Source of the DNA: a virus
Taxonomy: Duplodnaviria; Caudoviricetes
Strand: one strand, 5' to 3'
Virus record (IMG/VR): IMGVR_UViG_2832928787_000001
Coordinates: 24,759-88,758 of that record
Length of the DNA stretch: 64,000 nt
The position numbers were made by a program, and so were the translations under genes. Positions 6,380 through 59,053 of this stretch are shown in pieces. Under the pieces are notes generated by a model. It made no database searches. It was not told the origin of the DNA and worked only from the letters and a program-made list of their open reading frames with translations. How positions within the stretch are numbered: the first letter of the stretch is position 1; each line of letters starts with the position of its first letter.

Positions 6380-6494
6380 GGGGCCTCATAGACGTGTCAT
6401 CACGCCAGCGGTGATGACATAGTTGTAAAAAGACCGAACGGAACACGTCCGGCAAAAACTCCACGGGGGCAAAACGATCGTGGAGAGGGGGAGG

Positions 6495-6722
6495 TCAGCG
6501 ACCAGCAGGGTTTCCGGGTTGCAACGATGGGTTGCCTTCATCGGCTTGGCACTGAAGACCTACCCATGCGGCCCAAGCATCTGGACGCAAGCGGACAATC
6601 CGCCCGACGGCCGAGTCCGGTATGTCGTCAGGCCATCCGTGAACGCTGGGCGGCTTGATACCAATGGCCCTGGCTGTTCTAGATGGCCCTCCAAAATAAG
6701 AGAGGACAAATTGCTTTTTCAT
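6495..6722 (-). CDS. cro: Cro-like repressor
   Basis: MKKQFVLSYFGGPSRTARAIGIKPPSVHGW HTH, divergent from cI. Confidence 0.85.
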   Translation of the reverse strand: MKKQFVLSYFGGPSRTARAIGIKPPSVHGWPDDIPDSAVGRIVRLRPDAWAAWVGLQCQADEGNPSLQPGNPAGR

Positions 6723-6732
6723 GAGGCAATTA

Positions 6733-6793
6733 TAGGCACACCTACTAGCCACGCACAAGGTATACCTATCGAACAGCCTGTTAGGCTCACCTA
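6733..6793. promoter_or_regulatory. Three operators TAGG-N4-CCTA between cro and cI
   Basis: TAGGCACACCTA at 6733, AAGGTATACCTA at 6757, TAGGCTCACCTA at 6782. Confidence 0.8.
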
Positions 6794-6794
6794 C

Positions 6795-7499
6795 ATGACA
6801 TTGGCTGAACGGGTTACCCTCGCACTGCACGAGGAAGGAAAATCACAGACCGAGTTGGCGAAGGCCATCGGAGTACGGCCGCCATCAGTAAACGACTGGG
6901 TTTCCGGAAAGACCAAGACCATCAAGGGCGAGAATCTGCTGCGTGCCGCCAGCTACCTGCGCGTGCGGCCAGAGTGGTTATCCATGGGCCGGGGGCCAAT
7001 GCGCCAGGAAGACCTGGGCACCCCCATCACAACCCCACTTCGCCCAGTAAAGTTGATCGACTCTGACGACGAACTGGATGACGGTGCATTTGCCGTGCCC
7101 AGGTACACATTGAAGGCCAGCGCAGGAAACGGCGCACCAGTATTGGAAATCGACCAGAAAGGCCAATCCAACTACTGCCGGTACAACTGGGCAAACCGAA
7201 ACGGCTTTCGTAGAGAAGACCTGTTCAGCATCGTCACAATTGGCGACAGCATGGAGCCGACCATCCCAGATGGCGCCAGCCTCATCGTGCATAAGAGTCA
7301 GGACATCGTGAATGGGAAGGTCCACGTCATTTGTCGCGGTGACGAGTGTTTCGTGAAGCGCTTGTTCAAGCAGATGGATGGCTCGGTACTGATCAAGTCT
7401 GACAACCAGGCCAACTACAAAGACTCTGTTGCCAGACCTGACGACGCTGACCCCCTATACGTTGTCGGTCACGTGGTGTCCGTCAGCTTCAACCTGTAG
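6795..7499 (+). CDS. cI: CI repressor (HTH + S24 peptidase)
   Basis: SQTELAKAIGVRPPSVNDW HTH; GDSMEP and VKRL S24 catalytic motifs. Confidence 0.93.
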   Translation: MTLAERVTLALHEEGKSQTELAKAIGVRPPSVNDWVSGKTKTIKGENLLRAASYLRVRPEWLSMGRGPMRQEDLGTPITTPLRPVKLIDSDDELDDGAFAVPRYTLKASAGNGAPVLEIDQKGQSNYCRYNWANRNGFRREDLFSIVTIGDSMEPTIPDGASLIVHKSQDIVNGKVHVICRGDECFVKRLFKQMDGSVLIKSDNQANYKDSVARPDDADPLYVVGHVVSVSFNL

Positions 7500-7776: not shown

Positions 7777-7944
7777 CCCGCCGAGAGCAACAAGGCGGGC
7801 AGTCGGGGGACGAAGCGCACAGATGGCGCCGAGGACGAGCCCGACAATCGCCGCCCCGTGGCGAGTAACGGGAAAAGGAACGGCCTCGCAAGAGGCCGGT
7901 CACCAAAGCAGGCACACGCTGCATGCCATGCCCGCTTTGGCGAC
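7777..7944 (+). repeat. Multi-hairpin repeat, copy 1 (candidate structured RNA)
   Basis: Near-identical to 8818-8975 and 10049-10186; stems CCCGCC/GGCGGG, GTCGGG/CCCGAC, CCCGT/ACGGG, CGGCCTC-GCAA-GAGGCCG, TCACCAAAGC/GCTTTGG. Confidence 0.9.
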
Positions 7945-7950
7945 ATTTTC

Positions 7951-8742
7951 CTATTTGACTTGCGTCGCCAGTACGGCAACGACTTCTTGAGCTGCGCGCC
8001 TTTGTTCTGTGGTCAGGCGCCCGCAGTACAGATCGACATTGCCCTTGTCGCTGTCGTTCACCTTCGGATTGCCGGAGAACAGAATAAGCGCATACCAAGC
8101 GCAAGCTCTGACAGGGTTGTACGGAGCGCCCTGGGCACCAGTTGCAAGACTGTAAGCCGTATTTCGCTGCGCCTGGTAGTCACCGCCCTTGGCTTTTTTC
8201 TCCAGTGCCGCGAATGCTTCGGCACCATCGGCCAGTCGCTTCTTTTCTGCCTCGTCCGCTTCTTGCTCTGATTCAAGTACGGACATATCCGAAACCGGAA
8301 TGAATTTCTCACCCTCAGGCGAAGAGCACAAAACAGCGCAAGAAGATTTTGATGTATAAATACCGGGCTTGAATCCGCCCCCCATATCAAAAGTGCAGAC
8401 ATGGCCGCTGGCCGTTCTCATGGCGTCGCCGGTTGTCGGGTCTCCTTTGACTTTCAACTCGACAGCGACCCCCTTATTCCAGCCATAGTCCGGCGTTTTT
8501 GGTAAAGCCGGGCCGGATTCAGCTTTGATGTATTCCAGATCATTGGCACCGCTCGCAATATGGCGGCATTCTTTGGCAAATATCTGCAACGCTTTTTCCG
8601 CCGGATCGCCCATGGCAGAAAATGATTCACTTTTTTGATATGGCAAATCGGCGGATTTACTGCATCCAAGTAACGATGCCGCAACAAGAGAAACAGGAAG
8701 CAACCATTGCACACGTGTCTTCAGAGATATTTCTTTAGCCAT
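7951..8742 (-). CDS. Lipoprotein with C-terminal Sel1-like repeat
   Basis: Lipobox LLGC after a hydrophobic leader; GDYQAQRNTAYSL...ACAWY segment. Confidence 0.75.
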   Translation of the reverse strand: MAKEISLKTRVQWLLPVSLVAASLLGCSKSADLPYQKSESFSAMGDPAEKALQIFAKECRHIASGANDLEYIKAESGPALPKTPDYGWNKGVAVELKVKGDPTTGDAMRTASGHVCTFDMGGGFKPGIYTSKSSCAVLCSSPEGEKFIPVSDMSVLESEQEADEAEKKRLADGAEAFAALEKKAKGGDYQAQRNTAYSLATGAQGAPYNPVRACAWYALILFSGNPKVNDSDKGNVDLYCGRLTTEQRRAAQEVVAVLATQVK

Positions 8743-8817
8743 GATTTCCCCAGGATGAGATAGCCTTCAGGCCATCATTTTATCACATCGGCATATCATG
8801 TAAAAACTGAGCGAATT

Positions 8818-8975
8818 CCCGCCGAGAGCAACAAGGCGGGCAGTCGGGGACGAAGCGCACCGAAGGCGCCAAGGACGAGCCCGACAATCGCCGCCCCGTG
8901 GCGAGTAACGGGAAGAGGAACGGCCTCGCAAGAGGCCGGTCACCAAAGCTGAATCAGGTGGCTTTGGTGATACAC
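8818..8975 (+). repeat. Multi-hairpin repeat, copy 2
   Basis: Direct repeat of 7777-7944. Confidence 0.9.
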
Positions 8976-9056
8976 AATGAAACACCTGCCCCTGCCCGGT
9001 TTGGCAGGACAGTCAAATCAGGCCAAAATGCCGTCATCATTCTTAGGAGACGCGGC

Positions 9057-10016
9057 ATGGCCCGGCACAGCAAGAACAGCGACAGTGCAATCTGGATCGG
9101 CGTATTTATCCTGGTCGTGGCCCCCATCGCCTTTTTCATCTGGCTTTATCAGCAGATCGGTGCATGGGGCATCATTGGCGTCGTAGGCATACTGGCGGCC
9201 CTCATTGCGACCGGATTCGCCGCTCACTTCTACAAGGAGAAAACCGAAGCGGAAGCGCGGACGCAGCGCATCCAGCGTGACCTAGCCGAGATTGAACAGA
9301 AGCTGATCGAGGCCCGCCGACTGGGCACAGCACCATCTCCGCGTGCCATCCCTGAACAGCCCACGCTCAGCGACTTCGAGTGGGTCGGGGGCGGAGAAGC
9401 GGTCTCAGCCAACCTGCGGCTCCAGTATAAGGATGCGGCCGGCAACGTCACTGAGCGCACAGTTGAGGTCAAAGCCTTCACCGAACACCCGGCCGGCGGC
9501 ATAGAAGCATTCTGCCACCTGCGCCAAAGCCGCCGCTCGTTCTACTACCACCGCATGCAGAAGGTCGTAGACCTGGACAGCGGCGAGGTCATCCACGAGC
9601 CGTGGGCCTGGCTGGATGCTCGCCGCAGGGCATCACCCGATTTCGCCCTGTCGGAAAACTTGTCCGCCATCTGGCCGGAACTGGAAGTGCTGGTCTATGT
9701 CTGCCGGGCAGACGGCCGCATGATGGCGCCTGAACGGGCGCTGGTTGTCAGCTATATGCAAAAGCGGAAACCTGAGCTATCAACCGTCTCCGTGGCAAAA
9801 CTGGAAAAGGTACTGAAGGACGACGTAGCAAACCTGAGCCCCGCGCAATTCAAGCACTGTGTCGCCCAGTGCCGGCAACTGGATGAAGAAGTCCGGTCAG
9901 ACCTGGTCAGCACGGCGGTAGCAGTTGTTGCGACACAAAGCAGTGTTGCCGAGGCAGAGGATGTGGCACTGGATTATCTGCATGAAAAATTGCTGGATCA
10001 TGCTGAGCAGCCATAA
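9057..10016 (+). CDS. Membrane protein with WYL-like and TerB-like domains
   Basis: AGGAGA RBS; 2 TM helices; LQYKDAAGNVTERTV...AFCHLRQSRRSF (WYL-like); LVYVCRADG..E (TerB-like). Confidence 0.75.
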   Translation: MARHSKNSDSAIWIGVFILVVAPIAFFIWLYQQIGAWGIIGVVGILAALIATGFAAHFYKEKTEAEARTQRIQRDLAEIEQKLIEARRLGTAPSPRAIPEQPTLSDFEWVGGGEAVSANLRLQYKDAAGNVTERTVEVKAFTEHPAGGIEAFCHLRQSRRSFYYHRMQKVVDLDSGEVIHEPWAWLDARRRASPDFALSENLSAIWPELEVLVYVCRADGRMMAPERALVVSYMQKRKPELSTVSVAKLEKVLKDDVANLSPAQFKHCVAQCRQLDEEVRSDLVSTAVAVVATQSSVAEAEDVALDYLHEKLLDHAEQP

Positions 10017-10048
10017 ATCGCCCGAGGAACAGAACAAGCCCCGCTGCA

Positions 10049-10186
10049 GGCAGTCGGGGGACGAAGCGCACAGAAGGCGCCGAGGAAGAGCCCGACAATC
10101 GTCGGCCCCTGGCGAGTAACGGGCAAAGGAACGGCCTCGCAAGAGGCCGGTCACCAAAGCTGAACCAGGTGGCTTTGGTGATACAC
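10049..10186 (+). repeat. Multi-hairpin repeat, copy 3 (lacks the first stem)
   Basis: Direct repeat of copies 1 and 2. Confidence 0.9.
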
Positions 10187-10322
10187 TTAGCATTTTATTG
10201 GTAGACTTGCTCGCACCCAACAGTTTGCTAAATGGCAGCTTGTACAAAAAAATCAGGCAGGTTTGGGTCAGCAACAGCCCGTTGTGACCGGCTGCTACCG
10301 ACCCGAAAGCAGACAGTCAAAT

Positions 10323-10383
10323 TGTTAACACCTGAGTTACGCCGCACCAAAAAGTGGCATCGGTTTTGAATGAATTGTTAGAT
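10323..10383 (-). other. attC: Integron attC site
   Basis: Minus strand ATCTAAC-aattcattcaaaaccgatgccac...gtgcggcgtaactcaggt-GTTAACA; overlaps the stop codon of 10378-11172. Confidence 0.85.
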
Positions 10384-11172
10384 CACACCGAGCAGCCGTA
10401 GCACGCCTGCCCCTGCCAGCACAAAGCCGAGAAGCCCATATAACCAATGCTCCTTCACAAGCTCCACGATGACAGAAGGATGAAAATGAATTCGATCTTG
10501 CCAAGGCGCCTGAATTGCGAGCGTACGGCTATGAGCACGGCCCGCGAGGTTGGCCATGACATCAACCTTTCGCAGAGTTGATTGATGCAGCTTTACAAAC
10601 TCCCGGCTATCCCACGCCGCAGCTTCCGCTTTACCTGAGAGGAAATCTTGGTGGGTAATTTGGTTGAACTTCATGATCGACTCAAGCCGCGGATGGCCAG
10701 CGTAGCGAACACCGTAAATTGAGATCAAAACCCTAGATAGATCCAGTTTCTTCTCGTCCTTGGTTTCATACGGAGCTCCACCTAGTACACGATGCCTATG
10801 CTCCAGCGCTTGGAACCCATAATTAATGTCTCTCATGCTCCAGTGCAGCCACGTACAATGCGTGTGGGTGGCTGCGAAGGCAAAAAACTCGTCAAGCATC
10901 TCGCGCTCAAGGCGATCATAGTGGCTTTCAATGTCCGCGAGATCGACCTTCTGAATCTCCGCAATCTTGTGAATCGAGAAAGACCTAGTCTGACCAGAAT
11001 CCAGCTGCCGGGCGGCGATGCTCGTGATGCGAGGGGTTCGGCCATCGACGCGATCGTAGAAGCTCTCGCATGAGTAGTGAATCACCAAGCAGTAATGGGC
11101 GTTCTTGAAGAGAACGTCGAGGGCTTCTGACGCCTTCTTTCTCTGCTTGTAGAGATCGAGGTATTTTCCCAT
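10378..11172 (-). CDS. Integron cassette gene: putative 3'-5' exonuclease-like fold + C-terminal TM
   Basis: Bounded by GTTAGATCACAC and GTGTGATCTAAC; VIHYSCESF/ITSIA/LHW spacing resembles DnaQ-like folds (inference). Confidence 0.75.
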   Translation of the reverse strand: MGKYLDLYKQRKKASEALDVLFKNAHYCLVIHYSCESFYDRVDGRTPRITSIAARQLDSGQTRSFSIHKIAEIQKVDLADIESHYDRLEREMLDEFFAFAATHTHCTWLHWSMRDINYGFQALEHRHRVLGGAPYETKDEKKLDLSRVLISIYGVRYAGHPRLESIMKFNQITHQDFLSGKAEAAAWDSREFVKLHQSTLRKVDVMANLAGRAHSRTLAIQAPWQDRIHFHPSVIVELVKEHWLYGLLGFVLAGAGVLRLLGVI

Positions 11173-11177
11173 GTGTG

Positions 11178-11234
11178 ATCTAACGTTTGAGTTCAACGGA
11201 CGCAAAGGTGGCCCGCTGGAACGAATGGTTATGT
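11178..11234 (-). other. attC: Integron attC site
   Basis: ACATAAC-cattcgttccagcgg...ccgttgaactcaaac-GTTAGAT, closely resembling aadA-type 57-60 bp attC sites. Confidence 0.92.
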
Positions 11235-11873
11235 ACCAAAAAACTTTCCACCCAACGCAAAAGCGCCGGCCATGAGCACTGCGACGGCAGCCAGAACGCT
11301 CCATAGCTGAGTGAGTCTCAAACCACCGACTAGCTCCGCCAACGTAAGCTCTGCAGGCCCCTTGGGCAGAGTTGATGTCTTCTTATCCGCAAGCATTTTT
11401 TGCTTCCAACTCGCAAGCACACCGTTGAACTCAGTCGTGCTGAGCGCAGCAGCTTCTGGTTTAACCCACTGTACATACCAATCATTGCCGGGTTCAAGCA
11501 ATCCTTCGCTCTTTAGACCACTCTCTACGATGACCATTAACGGGTGGTTTCGGCTATAGGCCATGGCTGCCTCAATTTGGTTCCATGGCGTTGGTAGTTT
11601 TATATTAGAAAGTGACACCTCTTTCGAGCCACCGCGTTTCTCGATGCCGGAAGAAAAATACATACGTTCAAGGGCAATCACAACTGTGCCTGAGCACTCA
11701 TCTAGAAGGTCGGACACGGTTTTAAGCGGTGCACCAGAACCAAACGTGTTTCTTCCAACAGTATAAGGAATCAACCCCTCGCTTCGAAGTCTGTCTTCAA
11801 CTGCGCGGACGAAGGCTTCCTGCGAGTCTGTAGCTGTGCCACCCACGCTAACAAAAACATTCAATTCATTCAT
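11229..11873 (-). CDS. Integron cassette gene: TIR-like domain + C-terminal TM
   Basis: NVFVS beta-A strand, PWNQIEAAMAY helix with a putative catalytic Glu, hydrophobic C-terminus. Confidence 0.75.
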   Translation of the reverse strand: MNELNVFVSVGGTATDSQEAFVRAVEDRLRSEGLIPYTVGRNTFGSGAPLKTVSDLLDECSGTVVIALERMYFSSGIEKRGGSKEVSLSNIKLPTPWNQIEAAMAYSRNHPLMVIVESGLKSEGLLEPGNDWYVQWVKPEAAALSTTEFNGVLASWKQKMLADKKTSTLPKGPAELTLAELVGGLRLTQLWSVLAAVAVLMAGAFALGGKFFGT

Positions 11874-11906
11874 GACAGGTCGTTCCGATTCATTGAATTG
11901 ATTTAT

Positions 11907-11966
11907 ACCTAACAAACAAGATAAGCCGACCGCCGAAGCCGGGTCGGCTTGAGCGCCGGGTTAGAC
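11907..11966 (-). other. attC: Integron attC site
   Basis: GTCTAAC-ccggcgctcaagccgacccggcttcggcggtcggcttatcttgttt-GTTAGGT; AAGCCGACC/GGTCGGCTT stem. Confidence 0.93.
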
Positions 11967-12035
11967 ATCATAAGATGCGACGGCAGCTCTCAGCCACGAT
12001 GTGCCTTCGGGTATGTATTTCTTAATGTTGCTCAT
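11961..12035 (-). pseudogene. 24-codon mini ORF in a very short (probably internally deleted) cassette
   Basis: GTTAGAG core (12045-12051), then MSNIKKYIPEGTSWLRAAVASYDV* whose stop lies inside R'' GTCTAAC. Confidence 0.5.
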
Positions 12036-12276
12036 GCTCAAAGTCTCTAACTAGCTTTAGAAGGCACGCAACCAGCATGTTCAGTTCGCCTAAGACTGTA
12101 TGAATTTTGGGTCAGTAGGCAAATTAGCTGTTTCGGCGTTTCGGTGTTTAGGCAAACCTAAAAATTATGACCCCAGCTTTTGATGACGAATTTAGATCAA
12201 TGTCTGAATGGCCACCATTGGCCGATAGCCGCCCCCGCTACCAAAACAGCCAAAGCCTCATCACACTTGCGTTTTA

Positions 12277-12309
12277 TTGACATAGGCATAGCCAATTTAT
12301 CACGACAAA
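12277..12309. promoter_or_regulatory. Conserved 33-bp promoter-like motif bordering cassette locus 1
   Basis: TTGACATAGGCATAGCCAATTTATCACGACAAA; 27/33 identical to 58899-58931. Confidence 0.6.
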
Positions 12310-12327
12310 CACCAATCGACTACCCCC

Positions 12328-12353
12328 CGCCCAGCCCTGTGCTGGGCTTTTTT
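12328..12353 (+). terminator. Intrinsic terminator
   Basis: GCCCAGC-CCTGT-GCTGGGC then TTTTTT. Confidence 0.7.
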
Positions 12354-12374
12354 CGCCTCCAAGGAGCACTGAAC

Positions 12375-12743
12375 ATGCGCATCGCAACTGAACAACTGGC
12401 CGACATCCGTGGCGGCCTGATGGTCGAGGAACTGACCGAGTCCCTGGCTGAAGTCGTCAACGCCGTCATCACCACCGGCAAGAAGGGCGCCGTGCAACTG
12501 AAGCTGGACATCAACCCCGCCAGCAAGGGCGACGCCGTGGTGACGGTGACTGACGAGATCAAGAAGACCGTACCGCAGGAGAAGCGCACCGGCACGCTGA
12601 TGTTCGCCACGCCGTCCGGCTCGCTCCAGCGGCAGGACCCGCGTCAGACCGATCTGCCCCTGGTCTCGACATCGGCCACGATGCCGACGCTGCAGTCCAC
12701 TCCCACCGAATCCCCGTCGCTGCGCGTCGTCGGCGGCAACTGA
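12375..12743 (+). CDS. Conserved phage early protein (typical neighbour of DUF2303 genes)
   Basis: AAGGAG RBS; ELTESLAEVVNAV..TGKKG.V.LKLDI motif. Confidence 0.75.
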   Translation: MRIATEQLADIRGGLMVEELTESLAEVVNAVITTGKKGAVQLKLDINPASKGDAVVTVTDEIKKTVPQEKRTGTLMFATPSGSLQRQDPRQTDLPLVSTSATMPTLQSTPTESPSLRVVGGN

Positions 12744-12770
12744 TTTCCCCACCCAACCGAAAGCCCCCCC

Positions 12771-13616
12771 ATGAACACCGAAAAGAACATTGTCGAATCG
12801 GCCATTCAGGCCGCAAGCAAGCCGTTTCTGATGGACATCAGCGGCACCCCGGTTCTGCTGATGCCCGATTGCAATGGTGGCTGGTCGCGCCAGGAACTGG
12901 ACAAATACCGTACCGAGCCGCTGCGCAAGACTGGCGCAGTGGTCCTGCATCAGCTCGACAGCCTGCTGGCCTTCATCAAGGAGCACAAGGAATCCGGTAC
13001 CCAACTGTTCGTCGATGCCGACTATGCGCAGGGCCGTGCGTCGTTCAAGGCCGTGCTCAACGGCCATACCGGCCCCCAGCCTGACTTCGGCGACTTCACG
13101 GCGCTGTACACCCCGATGAAGACGGTCGACTGGTCGAACTGGCTGGAAAGCAACGGCAAGAAGATGGACCAGGAAGAATTCGCCCGCTTCCTGCAGGACA
13201 ACATTGCCAACATCGTCAGTCAGGATCCGGCCAATAGCAGCCGCCAGTACCCGGCCGCAGCCGACCTGCTGGAATTCGCCAGCAATCTGGAAATGACCAG
13301 CACCGTGCGCTTCCGCAGCAGCACCAAGGTGCAGAACGGCCAGGTGCAGTTTGAGTACGTCGAAGAGGGCGACAACAACACCAAAGGCCGTCTGCAGATG
13401 TTTGAGCGCTTCGGCCTCGGTCTGCAGCCGTTCGCAGGCGGTGACGCCTACTTCATCGAGGCGTTCCTGCGCTTCCGCATCGACCGCAACAGCGGTGAAC
13501 TCAAGCTGTGGTACGACCTGAACCGCCCGGACAAGGCCCTGGAAAACGCCACAGAAAAGATGATCGAGCGCATCAAGGTCGAATCGGGCGTGCCGGTCTA
13601 TTTCGGCAAGGCGTGA
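12771..13616 (+). CDS. DUF2303/YfdQ family protein
   Basis: W..SNGKKMDQEEFARFLQDN, FRSSTKVQNGQVQF, AFLRFRI motifs. Confidence 0.85.
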   Translation: MNTEKNIVESAIQAASKPFLMDISGTPVLLMPDCNGGWSRQELDKYRTEPLRKTGAVVLHQLDSLLAFIKEHKESGTQLFVDADYAQGRASFKAVLNGHTGPQPDFGDFTALYTPMKTVDWSNWLESNGKKMDQEEFARFLQDNIANIVSQDPANSSRQYPAAADLLEFASNLEMTSTVRFRSSTKVQNGQVQFEYVEEGDNNTKGRLQMFERFGLGLQPFAGGDAYFIEAFLRFRIDRNSGELKLWYDLNRPDKALENATEKMIERIKVESGVPVYFGKA

Positions 13617-16856: not shown

Positions 16857-17198
16857 ATGACTGATCCTGCAGACCTTGCCGGCTGCCAGTTCGGCCGGCT
16901 GACTGTATCCGGTCCGTCAGATGTCAGGATATTCCGCGGGCGCACCGTTCTCTGCCGGTGTCGCTGCGGCGGTTCTATCTGCGTCCGTCCCGGTGACCTG
17001 CGCAAAGGAAAGGTGAAGTCCTGCGGCTGCTACCGGCGCGAGCTGGCGCTTGCAGCGCTTCAGCGGGCGAACCAGCCCGAGGCCAGGTCAAGGCAACTGG
17101 TCTCGGCCAACAGGACGCGGCATCGAAAACAGATTTTGGCGCTGGGGTCCGTTACCACCACCCGCCAATACATCGACGGTCAACCTGCCCCGCTATGA
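16857..17198 (+). CDS. HNH/AP2-associated cysteine-rich DNA-binding protein
   Basis: DLAGCQFGRLTV...CRCRCG...KSCGC motif. Confidence 0.7.
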   Translation: MTDPADLAGCQFGRLTVSGPSDVRIFRGRTVLCRCRCGGSICVRPGDLRKGKVKSCGCYRRELALAALQRANQPEARSRQLVSANRTRHRKQILALGSVTTTRQYIDGQPAPL

Positions 17199-17317
17199 GC
17201 GGGGCGATTCATTTCCACACGATGCGGACAAAAGCAGCCAGCATGACGGCACGTTCGACGTCGCTCAGGAACCGATCGACTGAGCCACGCTGGTGACTGT
17301 TATCGACCAATTTCGGA

Positions 17318-17380
17318 CATTAACATAGAAGGTAAGCGGACTGCCGCTTGCTGCAGATTCGCTTGACTAAAAGGTTCGGT
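17318..17380 (-). other. attC: Integron attC site
   Basis: ACCGAAC-cttttagtcaagcgaatctgcagcaagcggcagtccgcttaccttctat-GTTAATG. Confidence 0.8.
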
Positions 17381-17424
17381 CTCTCGCTCCGAATGGCTGT
17401 TCAATAGAATATAAAAAATTGCCT

Positions 17425-17499
17425 GCCATTTAGACGGAAAAGCGCCGAATGGAACCAAAAAATATAGCTTTGGAGCGTCTGTTTGACGGATTTTTAGCC
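17425..17499 (-). other. Degenerate attC remnant
   Basis: GGCTAAA-aatccgtcaaacagacgctccaaagctatattttttggttcc resembles the first half of attC 57685-57772; R' not found. Confidence 0.55.
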
Positions 17500-17503
17500 A
17501 CTT

Positions 17504-17902
17504 TCATTTGATTCTCCGCTGCTTCAGCAGCTTGTCAATTTCATTGATGGCGTTTTTTTCTTCTATCTGAAAGGAGTTGGGCTCAATAGTCGCCTTCAAT
17601 GATTGAAATCCGAGAAAAATAGAGGCGACACCCAAGATAAAAGATGTAAGGTCGGCTTGGCCATTGAAGGCCGCCCAACCTGCTGCAGCGCAAAACAAGA
17701 CCAGGCTGAGACCGTAAATTGGTTTTAACTGTTTAACTTTCCGAGACTGCTCGAGGCGAATGTTTTCTTGCCTGAAAGGCCGTTCTTGCAATAATTCTTC
17801 ACTTGAACAGTGAACTAACAGCCTGTGCTGGTTTTGCGAATTATCGTTGACATTAAAATCGCCCTGGATATTTATTTGTCCATCATTGTTGAAATCGCGC
17901 AA
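17504..17902 (-). CDS. Cassette-like gene: two-TM-helix protein
   Basis: GAGGAGG RBS with TTG start, lower GC, two hydrophobic helices, GTTAGCA core at 17943-17949. Confidence 0.7.
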   Translation of the reverse strand: MRDFNNDGQINIQGDFNVNDNSQNQHRLLVHCSSEELLQERPFRQENIRLEQSRKVKQLKPIYGLSLVLFCAAAGWAAFNGQADLTSFILGVASIFLGFQSLKATIEPNSFQIEEKNAINEIDKLLKQRRIK

Positions 17903-18133
17903 TCGTGGCCTCCTCAGTCACGGATAAAGTGAATTTGCTTCATGCTAACGGCTATCGACCAGTTAGGCCATATCCCCTTACATCACCTCGTGGTTATGTG
18001 TGCAAAGAGTATTTGCGGCGAACGTTCAGCGTTTCCGACCTCCGCCTATTCGACGGTACCGTTGATCCAAACCTGTCGTTTTTTTGGTGGGTGTTCGAGC
18101 ATGTACTCAACAGCAACCATCAAATACCCACAG

Positions 18134-18166
18134 TTGACATTAGCATAACCACTCTACCACAACAAA
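18134..18166. promoter_or_regulatory. Conserved 33-bp promoter-like motif bordering cassette locus 2
   Basis: Minus strand reads TTGTTG-N17-TAATGT with an extended TGn; 31/33 identical to 58899-58931. Confidence 0.6.
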
Positions 18167-18288
18167 TTCCCAGCTTTCCACCCCGAACCCGCCCCCGATG
18201 GCGGGTTCGTCGTTTTCGACACCCCGCTGACACCCGGCACGCTCCCGGCGTGAGGTTGGGTACCGGCTGAACATATGGAGGTCATTGC

Positions 18289-19854
18289 ATGGACCGCGAT
18301 CAATTCCTGCTCGACATCAGCCATGAGCTGTTAATCGACAATTTCGCCGGCGGTGGCGGGGCCAGCACCGGCATCGAGCAGGCAACAGGCAGGTCCGTCG
18401 ACATTGCCATTAACCACGATCCCGAGACGGTGGCGATGCACGCCGCCAATCACCCGCAGACGCACCATTATTGCGAGGACGTGTATCACGTCGACCCGCG
18501 TACAGCGACGCAGGGGCGCCCGGTCGGATTGGTCTGGCTGTCTCCGGACTGCAAGCATCACTCGAAAGCAAAGGGCGGCAAGCCGCGCGAGAAGAAAATT
18601 CGTGGCCTTGCCTGGGTGGGCGTGAAATGGGCTGGCCAAACCCGTGCCCGGGTACTGATGTTGGAGAACGTCGAGGAATTCCAGGACTGGGGGCCGCTGG
18701 TTGCAAAGCGCGATGTCGCCACTGGCCGTGTGCTGACCATCGACGGTCGCGTGGCCGCCGTCGGCGAGCGCATTCCGGTCGAGCAACAGCACCTGGTGCC
18801 GGACCCGCGCCGGCGCGGGCAACACTTCCGGCAGTTTGTTGCCGCCCTGCGCCAGCTTGGCTACGCGGTTGAGTGGCGTGAATTGCGCGCATGTGACTAC
18901 GGCGCCCCGACCACACGCAAACGCCTGTTCCTGATTGCGCGGTGCGATAGCCGCCCCATCGTCTGGCCTGCGCCGACACATGGAGATCCGAAGGCGATCG
19001 GATTCAAGCGTCGCCAGCTCAAGCCATGGCGCACTGCTGGCGAGTGCATTGACTGGTCGATCCACTGCCCGAGCATTTTCGAGCGCGACCGGCCGCTGGC
19101 CGATGCCACGCTGCGCCGGATCGCCCGTGGCATCGTGCGCTACGTCCTGCAGACCGGCGAGCCGTACATCGTGAAGTCCTCGCAGAACAGCACCGGGCAT
19201 GGCCTTGGTGAGCCACTGCACACGGCAATGGCCGGGGCGACACGGTTCGGACTGGTCGAGCCATTCCTGACCGAGCATGCACTTGCCTGCGCCATGCTGA
19301 TCAAGCACTACGGTGGCAACTACACCGGGCACGGGTCTGATCTGGCAGAACCGATCCACACGATAACTGCCTCGGATCACCACTCGCTGGTGACGTCGCA
19401 TCTGCTCAAGCTGCGACACCACAGTGACGGCCAGCCTGCCACCGAGCCGATCGACGTTATCGCCGCTGGCGGGCAGCACTTCGGCGAGGTGCGGGCATTC
19501 CTGGTCAAGTACTACGGCAACGAGCGTGACGGCGTCAGTCTGTTCTCGCCGATGCACACCCTGCCGACGCGCGACCGCATGGGGCTGGTCACCGTCCAGA
19601 TTAACGGCGAGCCCTACGCGATCGCCGACATCGGCATGCGCATGCTGGAACCGCACGAGCTGTATGCCGCCCAGGGATTTCCGCGCTGGTACCGGCATGC
19701 ACTGACCATCGACGGACGACGTCTGCCGAAATACGCCCAGGTCCGCATGTGCGGTAACAGTGTCAGCCCGGTCATGCCGAAAGCGCTGGTCAGAGCCAAC
19801 CTGCCCGAACTGACCATGATCGGGCGGAAACAACGAGAGGAGCTTGCAGCATGA
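18289..19854 (+). CDS. DNA cytosine (C5) methyltransferase
   Basis: FAGGGG, SPDC, ENV, RKRLF and CGNSV motifs. Confidence 0.93.
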   Translation: MDRDQFLLDISHELLIDNFAGGGGASTGIEQATGRSVDIAINHDPETVAMHAANHPQTHHYCEDVYHVDPRTATQGRPVGLVWLSPDCKHHSKAKGGKPREKKIRGLAWVGVKWAGQTRARVLMLENVEEFQDWGPLVAKRDVATGRVLTIDGRVAAVGERIPVEQQHLVPDPRRRGQHFRQFVAALRQLGYAVEWRELRACDYGAPTTRKRLFLIARCDSRPIVWPAPTHGDPKAIGFKRRQLKPWRTAGECIDWSIHCPSIFERDRPLADATLRRIARGIVRYVLQTGEPYIVKSSQNSTGHGLGEPLHTAMAGATRFGLVEPFLTEHALACAMLIKHYGGNYTGHGSDLAEPIHTITASDHHSLVTSHLLKLRHHSDGQPATEPIDVIAAGGQHFGEVRAFLVKYYGNERDGVSLFSPMHTLPTRDRMGLVTVQINGEPYAIADIGMRMLEPHELYAAQGFPRWYRHALTIDGRRLPKYAQVRMCGNSVSPVMPKALVRANLPELTMIGRKQREELAA

Positions 19855-22081: not shown

Positions 22082-23166
22082 CTCGCCCCAGAAAGAAAAA
22101 TCGCGATCTCCCACCGCGCATGTACCTGAAGCATGGCGCCTATTACTACGTCACCCCAGCAAAGAAATGGATACGTCTATCCAGCAATCTAGAGGAGGCC
22201 AAGAGAAAGTGGGTCGAACTGGAAGCGCCATGCATGATGCCGTCGCAAGGCATGCTGGCGTTATTAAATCGCTATTCTGTCGAGGTGCTGGCAAATAAAT
22301 CCCCCAAGACCAGACAATTGCAGGAACCGCAAATGAAGCCACTTGAAGCTGCGTTTGGCGATATGCGACCGGATGAAGTTAGACCGGTACACATTGCCCA
22401 ATATCTCGATTACAGAGCAAGCAAAGACGCCCCGGTCGCGGGAAACCGGGAAAAGCAGTTACTGTCTCACGTTTTCACCATGGCAATGCGCTGAGGTATC
22501 GTAGACACCAATCCGTGCAAAGGCGTAACCCGGAACAAGGAAGTGCCGCGCACCCGATATGTCTCCGACCAGGAACTGGGCGACTTTATACAGTTCGCAA
22601 GAGACCTGAAAGTGGGGATGCTGAAAATCCGGGTCGATGATGACGGGAATGTACTGATGCCACAGCGAACGGCGAAGCGCTATACACGGCCACTTGCAAG
22701 TGGGCAGGTGGTTTCCAGCGTGCTGGACATTGCCTATCACACTGCCCAGCGCCGCCAGGATGTCCTGGCGCTTACTCTCGATGACATCACTGATGCAGGC
22801 ATACTGTTCCGGCAGCGGAAAACGCAGGATACCGCGCCGGTCAAAGTCCTGGTCAGCTGGAAGCCGGGCTTGCGCGAGGCCGTCAGGGTCGCCATGACCC
22901 TACCCCGCCGAGCCGGGTTCCTGTTCGAGACCCGCGGGCATCCCTATACCGACGACGGGTTCAGTTCCCTGTTCCAGCGAATCATGCGCACCTGGGGTTT
23001 ACTGGGCCATGAGCGGTTCACGGTTCACGATCTGCGCGCCAAGGGCGCAACCGACCTACTCGATCAGGGGGCTCAGGCAATAGACACTACGGGGCACGCC
23101 TCGGACAGCATCCTGAGGAGGGTCTATGACCGGCGCAGAACGCGCCGAGGGACGGCTGTGAAGTGA
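22078..23166 (+). pseudogene. int: Tyrosine integrase with an in-frame nonsense codon at 22492-22494
   Basis: Both ORF halves are in the same frame: AMR*GIVDTNPCKGV; catalytic TAQRRQD, HDLRAK, GH, VYDR present. Confidence 0.9.
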
Positions 23167-53400: not shown

Positions 53401-53663
53401 ACCACGGCAACACACCGTGGACCCACACCGACGTGGAAGTGAAGGCTCCGGGGGGCAGGCAAGGCCCGGCGGCAGGAAGCGAAAGAATGCGTCGGTTCAG
53501 CGGATGAAGCGTGGAGAGCGCGGACGCGGGGTGCCAGTCAAGGGCGGATGAGTAGCCGCCGCCCTCGCAAAGCCGCCACAGGGTGCGGTGCTGGTTGTGC
53601 TGATCTTTCGGAGCGGCTTCACCCGAGGCCGATCACCAAAGCCCCGTGACAGGCGGTTTTGGT
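53401..53663 (+). ncRNA. Candidate structured early leader RNA
   Basis: Series of hairpins sharing its 5' end, loop words and terminal double hairpin with the prophage 1 leader/repeat. Confidence 0.45.
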
Positions 53664-53696
53664 GAATGAACACCGGCATGGCCGGGAGGGGGAATT

Positions 53697-57552: not shown

Positions 57553-57690
57553 ATGCCCGCCCCCATAGACCTGACTGGCCAGCAATTCGGCCGACTGACC
57601 GCCCTCCGCCGCGATGGCCACGACACCAGCGGCAAAACGCTGTGGCTGTTCTCCTGCTCATGCGGCGGATTGGTGCGCATCGCAGCCTAA
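57553..57690 (+). pseudogene. Truncated HNH/AP2-associated gene, cut at the attC core
   Basis: MPAPIDLTGQQFGRLT...WLFSCSCGG..RIAA*; the stop lies inside GCCTAAC; homolog 16857-17198 is longer. Confidence 0.7.
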
Positions 57691-57772
57691 CGTTTTAGGT
57701 AAGTGGAACCGAAGCGCAGTGAAGGGGACCAAAAGTATAGCTTTTGGCGTCCGATTGACTGAATTGTTATAC
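57685..57772 (-). other. attC: Integron attC site
   Basis: GTATAAC-aattcagtcaatcggacgccaaaagctatacttttgg...ttccacttacctaaaac-GTTAGGC; overlaps the stop of 57767-58648. Confidence 0.85.
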
Positions 57773-58648
57773 CCATGGCAGACCGGTTAGTTTGGCTGAT
57801 GTTCCAAGTCCTTGCTGGATTCTTGTAAGTACCCGCCTATCGAGTGTTACTCCTGAACCTTTTTGCATTCCATCAAGATAGTTTGCTGCTGCATCAACTA
57901 GCCATTTTGTAAAATCTTCGGCTTCTTTTTTCAAAAACATTTTAACGGAAGTTCCAAAACAATCCTTGTCAGGATCTACAATTTTACCAGCCTCTGCTTG
58001 TAGGCCAAGCATCTTGAATTTTGCCTGATCGCTACGAGTTATTAATCCATAATTGTGCGACAAGGTATGCCTGATTTGAAAAACAGCCTGAAGCTTAATG
58101 TTTTTGCTAGCTAACGGTGATTTTAGATTTGATTTGTTGTATCTTTTGTCTTGAACTATAGATTGAGTCGCAGCGTCGATGCTGTCTAAATCATGATATA
58201 ACTGGTGTTCGAAAATCAGTTCGGAAATTGATATTTTTCCCGATACCGACCAAAGAACTTTAGAATCTACAGCACCCTTTATCCTTTCTGGCGGAACATA
58301 GTTTCTAAGGGCTTTGGCTAGATTTATAGCCGATTGTTTGTAAAAAACTTCAAACGCATTGATCGCCTCCAGTAAAGAATTTTGCTCGGCGTACCACTTG
58401 TATTTTCTGTATGTTAAATCCTTTGGTGATCTCTCACCTGCGGCCCTTTTTAATTTAATTAGCGTGCTGTGCCGGCTTTCAATCCACTGAATATAATTTA
58501 TTTGATTATTAAGGACTTCTTTAAATTTCTCCAGTGCCGTAGCTGATGTGGCCTTTGCAAGGTGTTTTATTTCTGCATTGTCAGCAGACTCAACCTTGTT
58601 GCGTTTTTCGAATAATTTAATGTTCTTTGAGCCAGTGGTTCGTGTCAT
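57767..58648 (-). CDS. Integron cassette gene: HEPN-domain protein
   Basis: AT-rich; upstream FE motif and IRHTLSHNYG (RxxxxH); cassette starts GCTATACCC, pairing with R'' GGGTATAAC. Confidence 0.8.
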   Translation of the reverse strand: MTRTTGSKNIKLFEKRNKVESADNAEIKHLAKATSATALEKFKEVLNNQINYIQWIESRHSTLIKLKRAAGERSPKDLTYRKYKWYAEQNSLLEAINAFEVFYKQSAINLAKALRNYVPPERIKGAVDSKVLWSVSGKISISELIFEHQLYHDLDSIDAATQSIVQDKRYNKSNLKSPLASKNIKLQAVFQIRHTLSHNYGLITRSDQAKFKMLGLQAEAGKIVDPDKDCFGTSVKMFLKKEAEDFTKWLVDAAANYLDGMQKGSGVTLDRRVLTRIQQGLGTSAKLTGLPWV

Positions 58649-58898
58649 GAAAGCACCGAGAGGGTATAGCGTAAAGTCGGCACCAATTGGTGCCTGAAAA
58701 TTTTAAAATGTCATTTGTCGTTAAATGCACAGTGACAAGACACTTAAAACGGACAAACCCTGTATTCACAAGGTAGGCCGATAATTTCATGCATCGTATA
58801 AAACCCAGAAAAACGACATGCTGAACCAAACATTACACCAATCAGGTCGTGTGTGAAATGGCTGCTTACTGCCGACAGCAGCCATCACACACCCATAA

Positions 58899-58931
58899 TT
58901 GACATTTGCATAACCACTCTATCACAACAAA
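58899..58931. promoter_or_regulatory. Conserved 33-bp promoter-like motif bordering cassette locus 3
   Basis: TTGACATTTGCATAACCACTCTATCACAACAAA. Confidence 0.6.
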
Positions 58932-59053
58932 CTCCCAGCTTTCTACCCCAAACCCGCCTCCGATGGCGGGTTCGTCGTTTTCGACACCCCGCTGACACCC
59001 GACACGCTCCCGGCGTGCGGCTGGGTGCCGGCTGAACATATGGAGGTCATTGC

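What the first reader, a model, noticed from the sequence alone, without database searches (positions are those of the whole stretch)
10323..12051. Integron cassette array with three attC sites inside a prophage, with no integron integrase
Seen: three minus-strand 57-61 bp imperfect palindromes (11907-11966, 11178-11234, 10323-10383), each with an RYYTAAC-like R'' and a GTTRRR R', and each overlapping the stop codon of a promoterless ORF. The cassette circularisation rule holds: the 10378-11172 cassette starts GTTAGATCACAC and ends GTGTGATCTAAC (12/12 complementary), and the next starts GTTAGGTA and ends TACATAAC (7/8). The array head reads CTTCTAAAGCTA-GTTAGAG, loosely like attI1 CCCTAAAACAAA-GTT. 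Established: this layout defines IntI-mobilised cassettes. Inference: the phage acquired host-integron cassettes through IntI supplied in trans.
Basis: partly seen in the sequence, partly recalled or inferred. Interest (0 to 1): 0.9.

Follow-up and report, generated by a model that had tools for sequence, protein, structure and literature searches.

The report
Integrase-less integron cassette array in prophage
A temperate phage integrated in a bacterial chromosome carries three genuine integron gene cassettes but no integron integrase; this kind of element has already been described in phages, so it is a clean new example and not a new kind of system.

Summary
I built a covariance model from 7 attC sites of two class 1 integrons, none from this window. 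Its three best hits in the 64-kb window are exactly the three claimed sites, all on the minus strand (51.5, 30.5 and 23.4 bits). Each site contains the TAA stop of an ORF. Cassettes 2 and 3 are widespread integron cassettes elsewhere. Homologues are flanked by attC in 9 of 74 and 30 of 80 loci, two sit in complete integrons with IntI, and DNA homology stops at the cassette ends.

The 88.7-kb record has no IntI. The array lies in the variable cargo slot between the CI repressor and the early operon of a lambdoid prophage. So it is a CALIN in a prophage.

Acquisition through a host IntI acting in trans is plausible but not shown. The host genome is not held. attC2 and attC3 fold poorly. Related phages in metagenomes differ by a 2.06-kb module that is wider than the array.

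CALINs in phages are published (PMC9892861). This scan has also noted phage-borne cassette arrays on other DNA (98 notes). Verdict: a new member of a known kind.

The parts
11907..11966 (-). attC1. R'' is GTCTAAC and R' is GTTAGGT. It closes cassette 1.
   Evidence: R1 51.5 bits, E 5e-12. R2 41.6 bits. 84-88% identical to attC sites on 28 class 1 integron plasmids. Bottom strand folds at -13.4 kcal/mol, z -3.05.
11913..12050 (-). Cassette 1, 138 bp. Its only ORF is 24 aa (12035-11961), probably non-coding. The array head core GTTAGAG is at 12051-12045.
   Evidence: Sequence. Length. No family hit for the 24-aa ORF. Similarity to other loci is limited to its attC.
11184..11912 (-). Cassette 2, 729 bp. 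The ORF 11873-11229 encodes 214 aa: a possible TIR-like domain plus a C-terminal hydrophobic helix.
   Evidence: 1165 homologues at E<=0.001, the listed ones 72-100% identical, across many phyla. 18 of 74 genome loci have attC on the gene strand, 9 of them adjacent to the gene. It sits in complete integrons in L012 and L017. The TIR-like reading is a lead only.
11178..11234 (-). attC2. R'' is ACATAAC and R' is GTTAGAT. It closes cassette 2.
   Evidence: R1 30.5 bits, E 4e-6. R2 43.9 bits, E 9e-8. It folds weakly: -6.5 kcal/mol, z -0.02.
10329..11183 (-). Cassette 3, 855 bp. The ORF 11172-10378 encodes 264 aa: an RNase H-like / DEDD-exonuclease-like fold plus a C-terminal hydrophobic helix.
   Evidence: phrog_8766, E 9e-64. 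2653 homologues. Model pLDDT 83.3. Best PDB match is RNase T at E 8.9e-4, followed by DnaQ, ERI2 and TREX1, all with TM 0.45 or less. 30 of 80 metagenome loci have an adjacent attC. Homology to L094 spans 11185-10373 only.
10323..10383 (-). attC3. R'' is ATCTAAC and R' is GTTAACA (non-canonical). It is the last site of the array.
   Evidence: R1 23.4 bits, E 4e-4. Not listed by R2 at E<=2. About 77% identical by eye to the aadB attC of L003. Fold is -3.8 kcal/mol, z +1.12. 12 of 14 complementarity with the start of cassette 3.
12052..12243 (.). Head flank: 192 nt, AT-rich, non-coding, neither attC nor conserved phage DNA. It could be a remnant of an attI or collapsed attC, or the target DNA of an insertion.
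   Evidence: No R1 or R2 hit on the minus strand. No promoter-like site. No similarity to 167 other loci apart from a 33-nt match at 12277-12309, which lies beyond this flank. Contig joints of related phages land at 12243/12244.
10187..10322 (.). Tail flank: 136 nt between the end of repeat D1-C and the R' of attC3.
   Evidence: No similarity elsewhere. It lies inside the variable module delimited.
10046..10186 (.). Repeat D1-C, third copy of a 130-170-nt repeat (also at 7777-7935 and 8818-8975). It carries a terminator-like hairpin for the minus strand, downstream of the array.
6480..7499 (+). CI-type repressor (HTH plus S24 peptidase), the left landmark of the cargo slot.
   Evidence: Pfam and PHROGs. 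Synteny in L080 and L081.
12375..13616 (+). First conserved early genes (phrog_204 and DUF2303), the right landmark. They are preceded by a promoter-like TTGACA..TATCAC at about 12277-12303 and a hairpin at 12329-12347.
   Evidence: L079 DNA homology starts at 12330.
57685..58648 (-). Separate single cassette in the second prophage: a 293-aa ORF (58648-57767) ending in an 88-nt attC (57772-57685).
   Evidence: R2 28.1 bits, E 4e-4. R1 17.2 bits, E 0.023. Its R' GTTAGGC supplies the stop of a 45-aa remnant of a gene that is 113 aa in the first prophage.

Best explanation
The region is a three-cassette cluster of attC sites lacking an integron integrase (a CALIN). It sits in the accessory-gene slot of a lambdoid prophage, between the CI repressor gene and the early operon.

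Shown:
- The three sites are attC sites of the kind found in class 1 integron cassettes.
- Cassettes 2 and 3 are independent mobile units that occur elsewhere in attC arrays, some with IntI beside them.
- The record encodes no IntI.

Inferred:
- The array was put together by an integron integrase supplied from outside the phage. It would have recombined cassette circles at the G|TT of attC with a non-attC site: either an attG-type secondary site or an attI remnant.
- This happened either in this phage or in an earlier carrier of the 2.06-kb module 10187-12243.
- The array is now probably fixed or poorly mobile, because attC2 and attC3 fold weakly.
- Its two real genes encode proteins with a C-terminal hydrophobic helix: a possible TIR-like protein and a DEDD-exonuclease-like protein. 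I take them to be lysogen-benefit genes, most likely anti-phage or exclusion functions, but no test here shows that.

The confidence of 0.7 is for the statement as a whole. I put the identity as a genuine CALIN in a prophage at about 0.9, and IntI having acted on this phage itself at about 0.4-0.5.
For: attC identity:
- R1 was trained only on 7 class 1 attCs. It ranks the three sites first of 27 matches in the window.
- R2 gives 43.9 and 41.6 bits for attC2 and attC1.
- attC1 matches attCs on 28 integron plasmids, including one beside intI1.
- attC3 keeps the aadB-type stem, including a G-C to A-T compensatory change (seen in the sequences).

Cassette status:
- Stop codons lie in R''.
- Cassette 3 shows 12 of 14 end complementarity.
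- Cassette 3 homologues have an attC within 120 nt in 30 of 80 metagenome loci, on both sides in 11 of 80. 76 of 83 hits are on the gene strand.
- Cassette 2 homologues have attC in 18 of 74 genome loci. IntI scores over the cut-off in 3 of 5 genomes tested, and in L012 and L017 it lies just upstream of the same array.
- Homologues start GTTATGCA.. and end ..TGCATAAC plus attC in L014, L017, L021 and L027; L009 and L019 show the same ends with one departure each.
- Homology to L094 and L095 begins at 11185, the cassette edge.
- Cassettes 2 and 3 never co-occur elsewhere: 0 of 80 and 0 of 74 loci.

Phage context.

No IntI.

Variable content at this slot:
- 0 of 5 related viral loci have attC.
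- The gap between CI and phrog_204 is about 310 bp in L080 against 4.9 kb here.

Boundaries at recombination cores:
- The head is non-attC DNA followed directly by GTTAGAG.
- The last attC is complete, but its R' tail is non-canonical (GTTAACA). That is expected if TT and what follows came from a non-cassette target.
- IntI-catalysed insertion into GWT genome sites, and small CALINs arising that way, are described in bioRxiv 10.1101/2022.09.11.507474 (passages read).
Against: - attC3 is weak. It scores 23.4 bits with R1 only and is absent from the R2 list at E<=2.
- attC2 and attC3 do not fold better than shuffles (z -0.02 and +1.12). Five of six control attCs give z -2.8 to -6.7; one control, L009, gives -0.76. 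Present-day recombination is therefore doubtful.
- End complementarity does not discriminate for cassettes 1 and 2.
- No precise empty site (10322 joined to 12052) was found. Contigs of related phages join across wider spans instead: 7897 to 12293, 7899 to 12244 and 9041 to 12243. These were laid at 88% likeness with sides of 30-51 nt, so they are weak. They mean that arrival by phage-phage module exchange is at least as likely for the last step.
- No promoter-like site was found upstream of the array, so expression is unexplained.
- The functions of both proteins rest on weak or moderate fold and embedding hints. Pfam, NCBIfam and PADLOC gave no hit.
- The host genome could not be examined.
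Confidence: 0.7

Rival explanations
1. The array is the remnant of a complete small integron whose intI was lost. The 192-nt head flank would then be the old attI and promoter region, and the whole block was captured by the phage.
For: The head ends in an imperfect inverted repeat (TCTAA-6 nt-TTAGA) directly at the first cassette, and it is loosely alignable to the attI1 core of L004. The 192-nt flank is of the same order as the roughly 144 nt between intI1 and the first cassette in L004 (my estimate). CALINs have been proposed to arise by integrase loss, as stated in the passages read.
Against: The six-frame IntI search of the record found nothing near the array. The head flank has no similarity to the IntI-proximal regions of L012, L017, L086-L088 or L091, nor to L004. 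No promoter-like site is found in it. The non-canonical R' of attC3 fits an insertion better than a cut-out array.
Confidence: 0.15
2. IntI never acted on this phage. The 2.06-kb module (array plus both flanks) was built elsewhere and came in by ordinary phage recombination at the conserved D1 repeat and early-promoter sequences, as other cargo at this slot does.
For: Contigs of related phages join the D1 core or 9041 directly to 12243/12244/12293. Three D1 copies separate unrelated cargo. L079 homology resumes only at 12330. Related viral loci carry other cargo here.
Against: This explains only the last transfer. The array itself still needs an integron integrase at some stage. The joints were laid at 88% likeness with short sides, and the tool warns that such joints may come from other organisms or from repeats. 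No donor carrying the module was found.
Confidence: 0.3
3. The three palindromes are ordinary terminators or repeat elements, and the cassette look is coincidence.
For: The bare core motif is not enriched. attC2 and attC3 fold no better than shuffles. Rfam gave no hit, though no family among its matches is an attC family.
Against: A model trained on unrelated class 1 attCs ranks exactly these three sites first, and on the right strand. attC1 is 84-88% identical to known attCs. Homologues of both genes lie in attC arrays with IntI. Homology stops at the cassette edges.
Confidence: 0.02

Closest known systems
[quoted passage not shown]
   Same: Two or more attC sites with single-ORF cassettes in one direction, inside a phage genome, with no intI. 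That paper reports 17 such CALINs in virulent, temperate and uncharacterised phages. It also shows that 5 of 6 tested phage attCs recombine with attI1 through IntI1.
   Different: This array sits in the immunity-region cargo slot of a lambdoid prophage. Its attCs closely resemble those of class 1 integron cassettes. The tandem second prophage carries a further single cassette. No recombination assay exists for these sites.
attC x attG insertion of cassettes into genome sites, giving SALINs and small CALINs: bioRxiv 10.1101/2022.09.11.507474 (passages read)
   Same: Cassettes outside any integron platform, bounded by the G|TT crossover, next to non-att DNA, in a small array. The target consensus reported there is 5'-GWT-3', and the putative target here reads G|TTAAC.
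   Different: That work used bacterial chromosomes and experiments with IntI1. Here the target is phage DNA, the event is only inferred, and no empty site was recovered.
attC sites of class 1 integron cassettes, for example the aadB cassette and the DUF1010-annotated cassette on pMR0211 (L003), and the cassette between blaIMP-1 and aac(6')-Ib4 on p0801-IMP (L004)
   Same: attC1 is 84-88% identical to the DUF1010-type attC. attC3 shares both ends and the stem layout of the aadB attC.
   Different: The cassette bodies are unrelated and carry no resistance genes. attC2 and attC3 have much weaker stems than the plasmid sites.
Integron cassettes that encode anti-phage defence: bioRxiv 10.1101/2024.07.02.601686 and 10.1101/2024.07.02.601719 (search listings and abstract openings only)
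   Same: Small single-gene cassettes of unknown function, one of them possibly TIR-like.
   Different: No defence family matched either protein (PADLOC). The link is an inference.

Membership tests
Integron attC site / gene cassette | Inverted core sites R'' (RYYYAAC) and R' (GTTRRRY) at the two ends | tested here: met
   GTCTAAC/GTTAGGT, ACATAAC/GTTAGAT and ATCTAAC/GTTAACA. The R' of attC3 departs from RRRY at two positions. The consensus wording is recalled.
Integron attC site / gene cassette | Imperfect palindrome with an unpaired spacer, L''/L' stem and extrahelical bases, scored by a covariance model | tested here: met
   R1 gives 51.5, 30.5 and 23.4 bits, the top 3 of 27 matches. R2 gives 43.9 and 41.6 bits but does not list attC3. 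These are my own models, not IntegronFinder's.
Integron attC site / gene cassette | Stable folding of the bottom strand as single-stranded DNA | tested here: inconclusive
   attC1 z -3.05, attC2 z -0.02, attC3 z +1.12. Controls give z -2.8 to -6.7 in 5 of 6, and one gives -0.76.
Integron attC site / gene cassette | The start of a cassette is complementary to the R'' end of its own attC (circular form) | tested here: met
   Clear for cassette 3 (12 of 14, run of 12, against 9 and 8 for the other sites). Not discriminating for cassettes 1 and 2.
Integron attC site / gene cassette | The same gene occurs as an independent attC-bounded unit in other arrays, some with IntI | tested here: met
   Cassette 3: 30 of 80 loci have an adjacent attC. 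Cassette 2: 18 of 74 loci have attC, and it sits in complete integrons in L012 and L017. Homology ends at the cassette edges.
Integron attC site / gene cassette | Recombination by an integron integrase | not testable with these tools
   Needs an attC x attI assay or circle PCR.
Complete integron | An intI gene next to the array | tested here: not met
   In the whole 88,758-base record, TIGR02249 gives only 19.1 and 16.8 bits, at the phage integrase, against a cut-off of 265. That protein scores 35 bits.
Complete integron | An attI site and a Pc promoter upstream of the first cassette | tested here: inconclusive
   Only a loose alignment to attI1. No promoter-like site in 12052-12370 on the minus strand. 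attI sites are not conserved between integron classes (recalled).
CALIN | Two or more attC sites close together with no intI nearby | tested here: met
   Three sites within 1.73 kb and no intI in the record. IntegronFinder's exact distance thresholds are recalled and were not run.
Temperate (lambdoid) prophage | Repressor, replication, packaging and structural genes plus an integrase surround the locus, with synteny to other viral genomes | tested here: met
   Small terminase subunit, primase, CII-like, CI/S24, DUF2303 and exonuclease genes. The same order is seen in L080-L083. A short integrase-family ORF lies at 22543-23166. The second prophage has capsid, portal and large terminase subunit genes.

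The most novel reading that the evidence does not exclude
Host integron integrases repeatedly write cassettes into temperate-phage DNA at non-att GTT sites. On this reading, the accessory-gene slots of phages are partly stocked from the integron cassette pool.

Here that would have happened at two or three separate places in two tandem prophages: the three-cassette array, the single cassette at 57685-58648, and a possibly eroded site at 17322-17376. The cargo would be small membrane-anchored effectors (TIR-like and DEDD-nuclease-like) that protect the lysogen against other phages.
Probability: 0.3. Interest if true: 0.6.

Novelty: new member of a known kind. Interest (0 to 1): 0.4.

Why it matters
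It is a well-documented case of integron cassettes riding in a temperate phage, so phages are a route by which cassettes move between bacteria. The attC sites are close relatives of those on clinical class 1 integron plasmids, so a class 1 integrase in a new host could in principle pick these cassettes up. The array sits beside the repressor gene, and the two proteins end in a hydrophobic helix and have no assigned function. Both points make them reasonable candidates for lysogen-protecting genes, which is testable. The phenomenon itself is already in print, so the value lies in the example and in the cassette families, not in a new principle.

Tried and rejected
- Rfam at E<=10 over 9000-13500 gave 2 matches that I take as chance (mir-648 and GlsR5, far below their gathering scores). 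No attC family appeared among the matches.
- Close relatives of either cassette protein in viral contigs: none.
- Phage collection, blastn with 10200-12400: no match.
- Exact 25-nt and 27-nt flank words in viral contigs: 0 hits each. No empty site or donor was found by that route.
- blastn of the head flank, tail flank and cassette 1 against 167 fetched loci found only the attC1 similarities and a 33-nt match in L079.
- Pfam, PHROGs (for cassette 2), NCBIfam and PADLOC gave no hit for the cassette 2 and cassette 3 proteins, except phrog_8766 for cassette 3.
- The cassette 2 structure model was poor (pLDDT 55.6). Its fold search had no match at E<=0.001. TIR and nucleoside deoxyribosyltransferase chains appear only among non-significant rows. 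Atlas scores were 0.76-0.83, below the 0.9 lead level.
- I looked for an internal empty site by comparing the two prophages. DNA homology is limited to 18110-18383 against 58875-59148. The C-terminal half of the truncated gene is not found beyond the cassette. It is therefore not a simple insertion.
- Sequencing runs: no RNA holder is listed, so nothing can be said on expression.
- In one search all runs are contigs, so depth cannot rank parts. The thin cover over 10354-12041 is noted here only. I used only the joints as evidence, and weakly.
- The idea that the locus was an integrative conjugative element, from the DUF2303 and ParA-like genes, was dropped.
This report is the same with that field added.
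Full report
**What is there.** On the minus strand of 10323-12051 lie three imperfect palindromes with integron core sites: attC1 at 11966-11907, attC2 at 11234-11178 and attC3 at 10383-10323. Each contains the TAA stop of an ORF that runs in the same direction. Counting from the G|TT crossovers, the cassettes are 138, 729 and 855 bp. The region has 44-54% G+C, against 59-70% in the phage genes to its right.

**Are they attC sites?** None of the Rfam matches is an attC family, so I made my own test.

- A blastn of the region against plasmids returned 28 records. All of them match attC1 alone, at 84-88% identity.
- In two of those records that I opened, the match lies exactly at a cassette boundary of a class 1 integron, one of them beside intI1.
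- From these two plasmids I took 7 attC sites and aligned them. I wrote the canonical pairing (R''/R', L''/L', two unpaired single positions) and built model R1.
- I ran R1 over the whole window, both strands, with filters off. It listed 27 matches at E<=10. The first three are the three claimed sites, all on the minus strand: 51.5 bits (E 5e-12), 30.5 bits (E 4e-6) and 23.4 bits (E 4e-4). The fourth scores 17.8 bits.
- A second, broader model R2 was built from 34 matches in 12 loci, 3 of which were reverse-strand duplicates. Over the whole record it gave 43.9 bits for attC2 and 41.6 bits for attC1. It gave 28.1 bits for a further site at 57685-57772. It did not list attC3 at E<=2.
- attC3 is therefore the weakest site. 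It still shares both ends and the stem layout of the aadB attC.
- The bare core motif is not enriched over chance.

**Folding of the sites.** Single-strand folding supports only attC1 (z -3.05). attC2 gives z -0.02 and attC3 gives z +1.12. Five of six control attCs give z -2.8 to -6.7, and one gives -0.76. I read this as real attC sites, two of which are probably poor substrates today.

**Are the units real cassettes?**

- Cassette 3 shows the circular-form signature. Its first 14 bases match the reverse complement of its own R'' end at 12 positions, with a run of 12. They match the other two sites at 9 and 8 positions. For cassettes 1 and 2 the rule holds but does not discriminate.
- The cassette 2 protein (214 aa) has 1165 homologues at E<=0.001. 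The 120 listed are 72-100% identical and come from very different phyla.
- Of 74 genome loci that encode a cassette 2 homologue, 10 have an attC hit with R1 at E<=1 and 18 have one with R2 at E<=0.1. In 9 loci the attC is adjacent to the gene. R2 was trained on sites from 10 of these loci.
- IntI scores over the curated cut-off in 3 of 5 genomes tested. In L012 and L017 it lies on the same contig, directly upstream of the array that holds the homologue.
- The printed flanks show the homologues starting GTTATGCA.. and ending ..TGCATAAC followed by an attC in L014, L017, L021 and L027; L009 and L019 show the same ends with one departure each. The Variovorax, Methylibium and Pseudomonas fluorescens copies have no attC.
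- The cassette 3 protein (264 aa) has 2653 homologues.
- Of the best 80 of 534 metagenome loci, 36 have an attC on the gene strand. In 30 it lies within 120 nt of the gene, and in 11 on both sides. 76 of 83 hits are on the gene strand.
- DNA homology between the window and the closest locus (L094, 89% protein identity) runs from 11185 to 10373. That is the cassette and nothing more.
- The two genes are never neighbours elsewhere: 0 of 80 and 0 of 74 loci.
- Cassette 1 holds only a 24-aa ORF with no relatives. It is probably an empty cassette.

**Context.** The window is part of an 88,758-base provirus record, and no host genome is held.

- To the left of the array lie a small terminase subunit gene, a primase, a CII-like gene (all minus strand) and a CI/S24 repressor (plus strand).
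- To the right lie phrog_204, DUF2303, a ParA-like gene, an exonuclease and a cytosine methylase.
- Five related viral contigs keep the order primase, CII, CI, variable gap, phrog_204, DUF2303. The gap is about 310 bp in L080 and 4.9 kb here.
- None of the five has an attC hit.
- DNA homology to the closest relative resumes at 12330.
- A second prophage follows, with lysozyme, tail, capsid, portal and large terminase subunit genes, its own CI, and an integrase at the end of the record.

The array is therefore inside a phage genome, in its cargo slot, and not in host DNA between prophages.

**No integron integrase.** The six-frame search of the record with TIGR02249 found only two weak pieces (19.1 and 16.8 bits, cut-off 265), both in the terminal phage integrase. 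As a protein that integrase scores 35 bits.

**How the array got there.** This part is inference.

- The array starts with GTTAGAG directly after DNA that is not an attC.
- It ends with a complete attC whose R' tail, TTAACA, is not the usual TTRRRY.
- That is the pattern expected if cassette circles were recombined by IntI at G|TT with a non-cassette partner. A preprint I read in passages shows such attC x attG insertion into GWT genome sites, and proposes it as a source of small CALINs.
- The head also carries a short inverted repeat and can be loosely aligned to attI1. An attI remnant or a collapsed attC therefore cannot be excluded.
- Against insertion in place: contigs from four metagenome runs that hold relatives of this phage join 7897 to 12293, 7899 to 12244 and 9041 to 12243.
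- The unit that differs between phages therefore spans about 10187-12243: the array plus 136 and 192 nt of unexplained flanks.
- Those joints were laid at 88% likeness with sides of 30-51 nt, and the tool warns that such joints can come from other organisms or from repeats. No joint at the precise array ends was seen, and no donor was found.
- I conclude that an integron integrase assembled the array at some stage. Whether that happened on this phage is open.

**What it does.**

- Both proteins are full length relative to their families and end in a hydrophobic helix.
- The cassette 3 protein gives a confident model (pLDDT 83.3). That model resembles DEDD 3'-5' exonucleases of the RNase H-like fold, but only weakly: RNase T at E 8.9e-4, and TM no higher than 0.45.
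- The cassette 2 protein could not be modelled well. One source names a homologue as a TIR-domain protein, and embedding neighbours are TIR families at scores below the lead threshold.
- No promoter-like site precedes the array, and no RNA run is available.
- A role in protecting the lysogen is my inference. It rests on the position beside the repressor gene and on reports that integron cassettes encode defence systems (listings and abstract openings only).

**Comparison with what is known.** Qi et al. 2023 (PMC9892861; abstract, passages and section 3.4 read) report 3 complete integrons, one In0 and 17 CALINs in phage genomes. They also show IntI1-dependent recombination of phage attCs. This finding is another member of that kind. 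Earlier notes of this scan describe phage-borne cassette arrays on other DNA: 98 notes in at least 86 genomes. Other notes on this same record flagged the single cassette at 57685-58648, an eroded locus near 17300-17970 and the D1 repeats. I checked these only in part.

**Verdict.** The reading as an integrase-less cassette array in a prophage is supported. The claimed route of acquisition is untested. My confidence that this is a genuine CALIN in a prophage is about 0.9. My confidence that IntI acted on this phage itself is about 0.4-0.5. It is a new member of a known kind, of moderate interest.

Noticed in passing
window 7777-7935, 8818-8975, 10046-10186 (weaker copy at 53610-53665): Three direct copies (84-96% identical) of a 130-170-nt element separate unrelated cargo genes. 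Each carries a terminator-like hairpin on the minus strand. Metagenome contigs of related phages join the end of the repeat core (7897-7899), or 9041, straight to 12243-12293. One contig goes back from 10018 to 7756. Cargo therefore seems to be exchanged at these repeats. No Rfam hit covers copy C.
   Followed up: partly
window 57685-58648 (minus strand): A single cassette in the second prophage: a 293-aa ORF with no family hit, ending in an 88-nt attC (R2 28.1 bits, R1 17.2 bits). The R' GTTAGGC supplies the stop codon of a 45-aa remnant of a gene that is 113 aa in the first prophage (16857-17198). The missing C-terminal half is not found on the other side of the cassette.
   Followed up: partly
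window 17322-17376 and 17944-17968 (minus strand): Weak attC-like sites at the equivalent place in the first prophage (R2 14.8 bits at E 0.42; R1 8.2 and 9.5 bits). They flank a 131-aa ORF with no family hit. They could be eroded cassette sites or chance matches.
   Followed up: partly
L009, L015, L019, L027, L030, just downstream of the cassette 2 homologue: In five loci the gene is followed by a collapsed site in which R'' (..TAAC) and R' (GTTAG/GTTAA) are only 4-6 nt apart and the L''/L' stem is missing. The array head in the window (TTCTAAA-GCTA-GTTAGAG) has a similar look.
   Followed up: no
window ~12258-12313, ~18110-18170, ~58875-58935 (plus strand): A shared promoter-like motif (TTGACAT.(T/G)GCATA(A/G)CC...TA(T/C)CAC) precedes the early operon and both cytosine methylase genes. 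The last two copies are 84% identical over 274 nt.
   Followed up: no
window 9051-10016 (plus) and 7951-8742 (minus): These are the other two cargo genes of the slot. One is a membrane protein with a WYL-like stretch (PADLOC RTasWYL-YodC, E 8.6e-9, and WYL, E 2e-4). The other is a 263-aa protein that matches phrog_5882 (E 4e-18).
   Followed up: no
window 22543-23166 (plus): A short (207 aa) integrase-family ORF (PF00589, 37.6 bits) lies at the right end of the first prophage. It is about half the length of the 445-aa integrase of the second prophage, and may be truncated.
   Followed up: no
window 10378-11172 and 11229-11873 (minus strand): Both cassette proteins end in a single hydrophobic helix after a soluble domain. 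The helix-region motifs QLWS and GAF..G are invariant in the 17 aligned cassette 2 homologues.
   Followed up: partly
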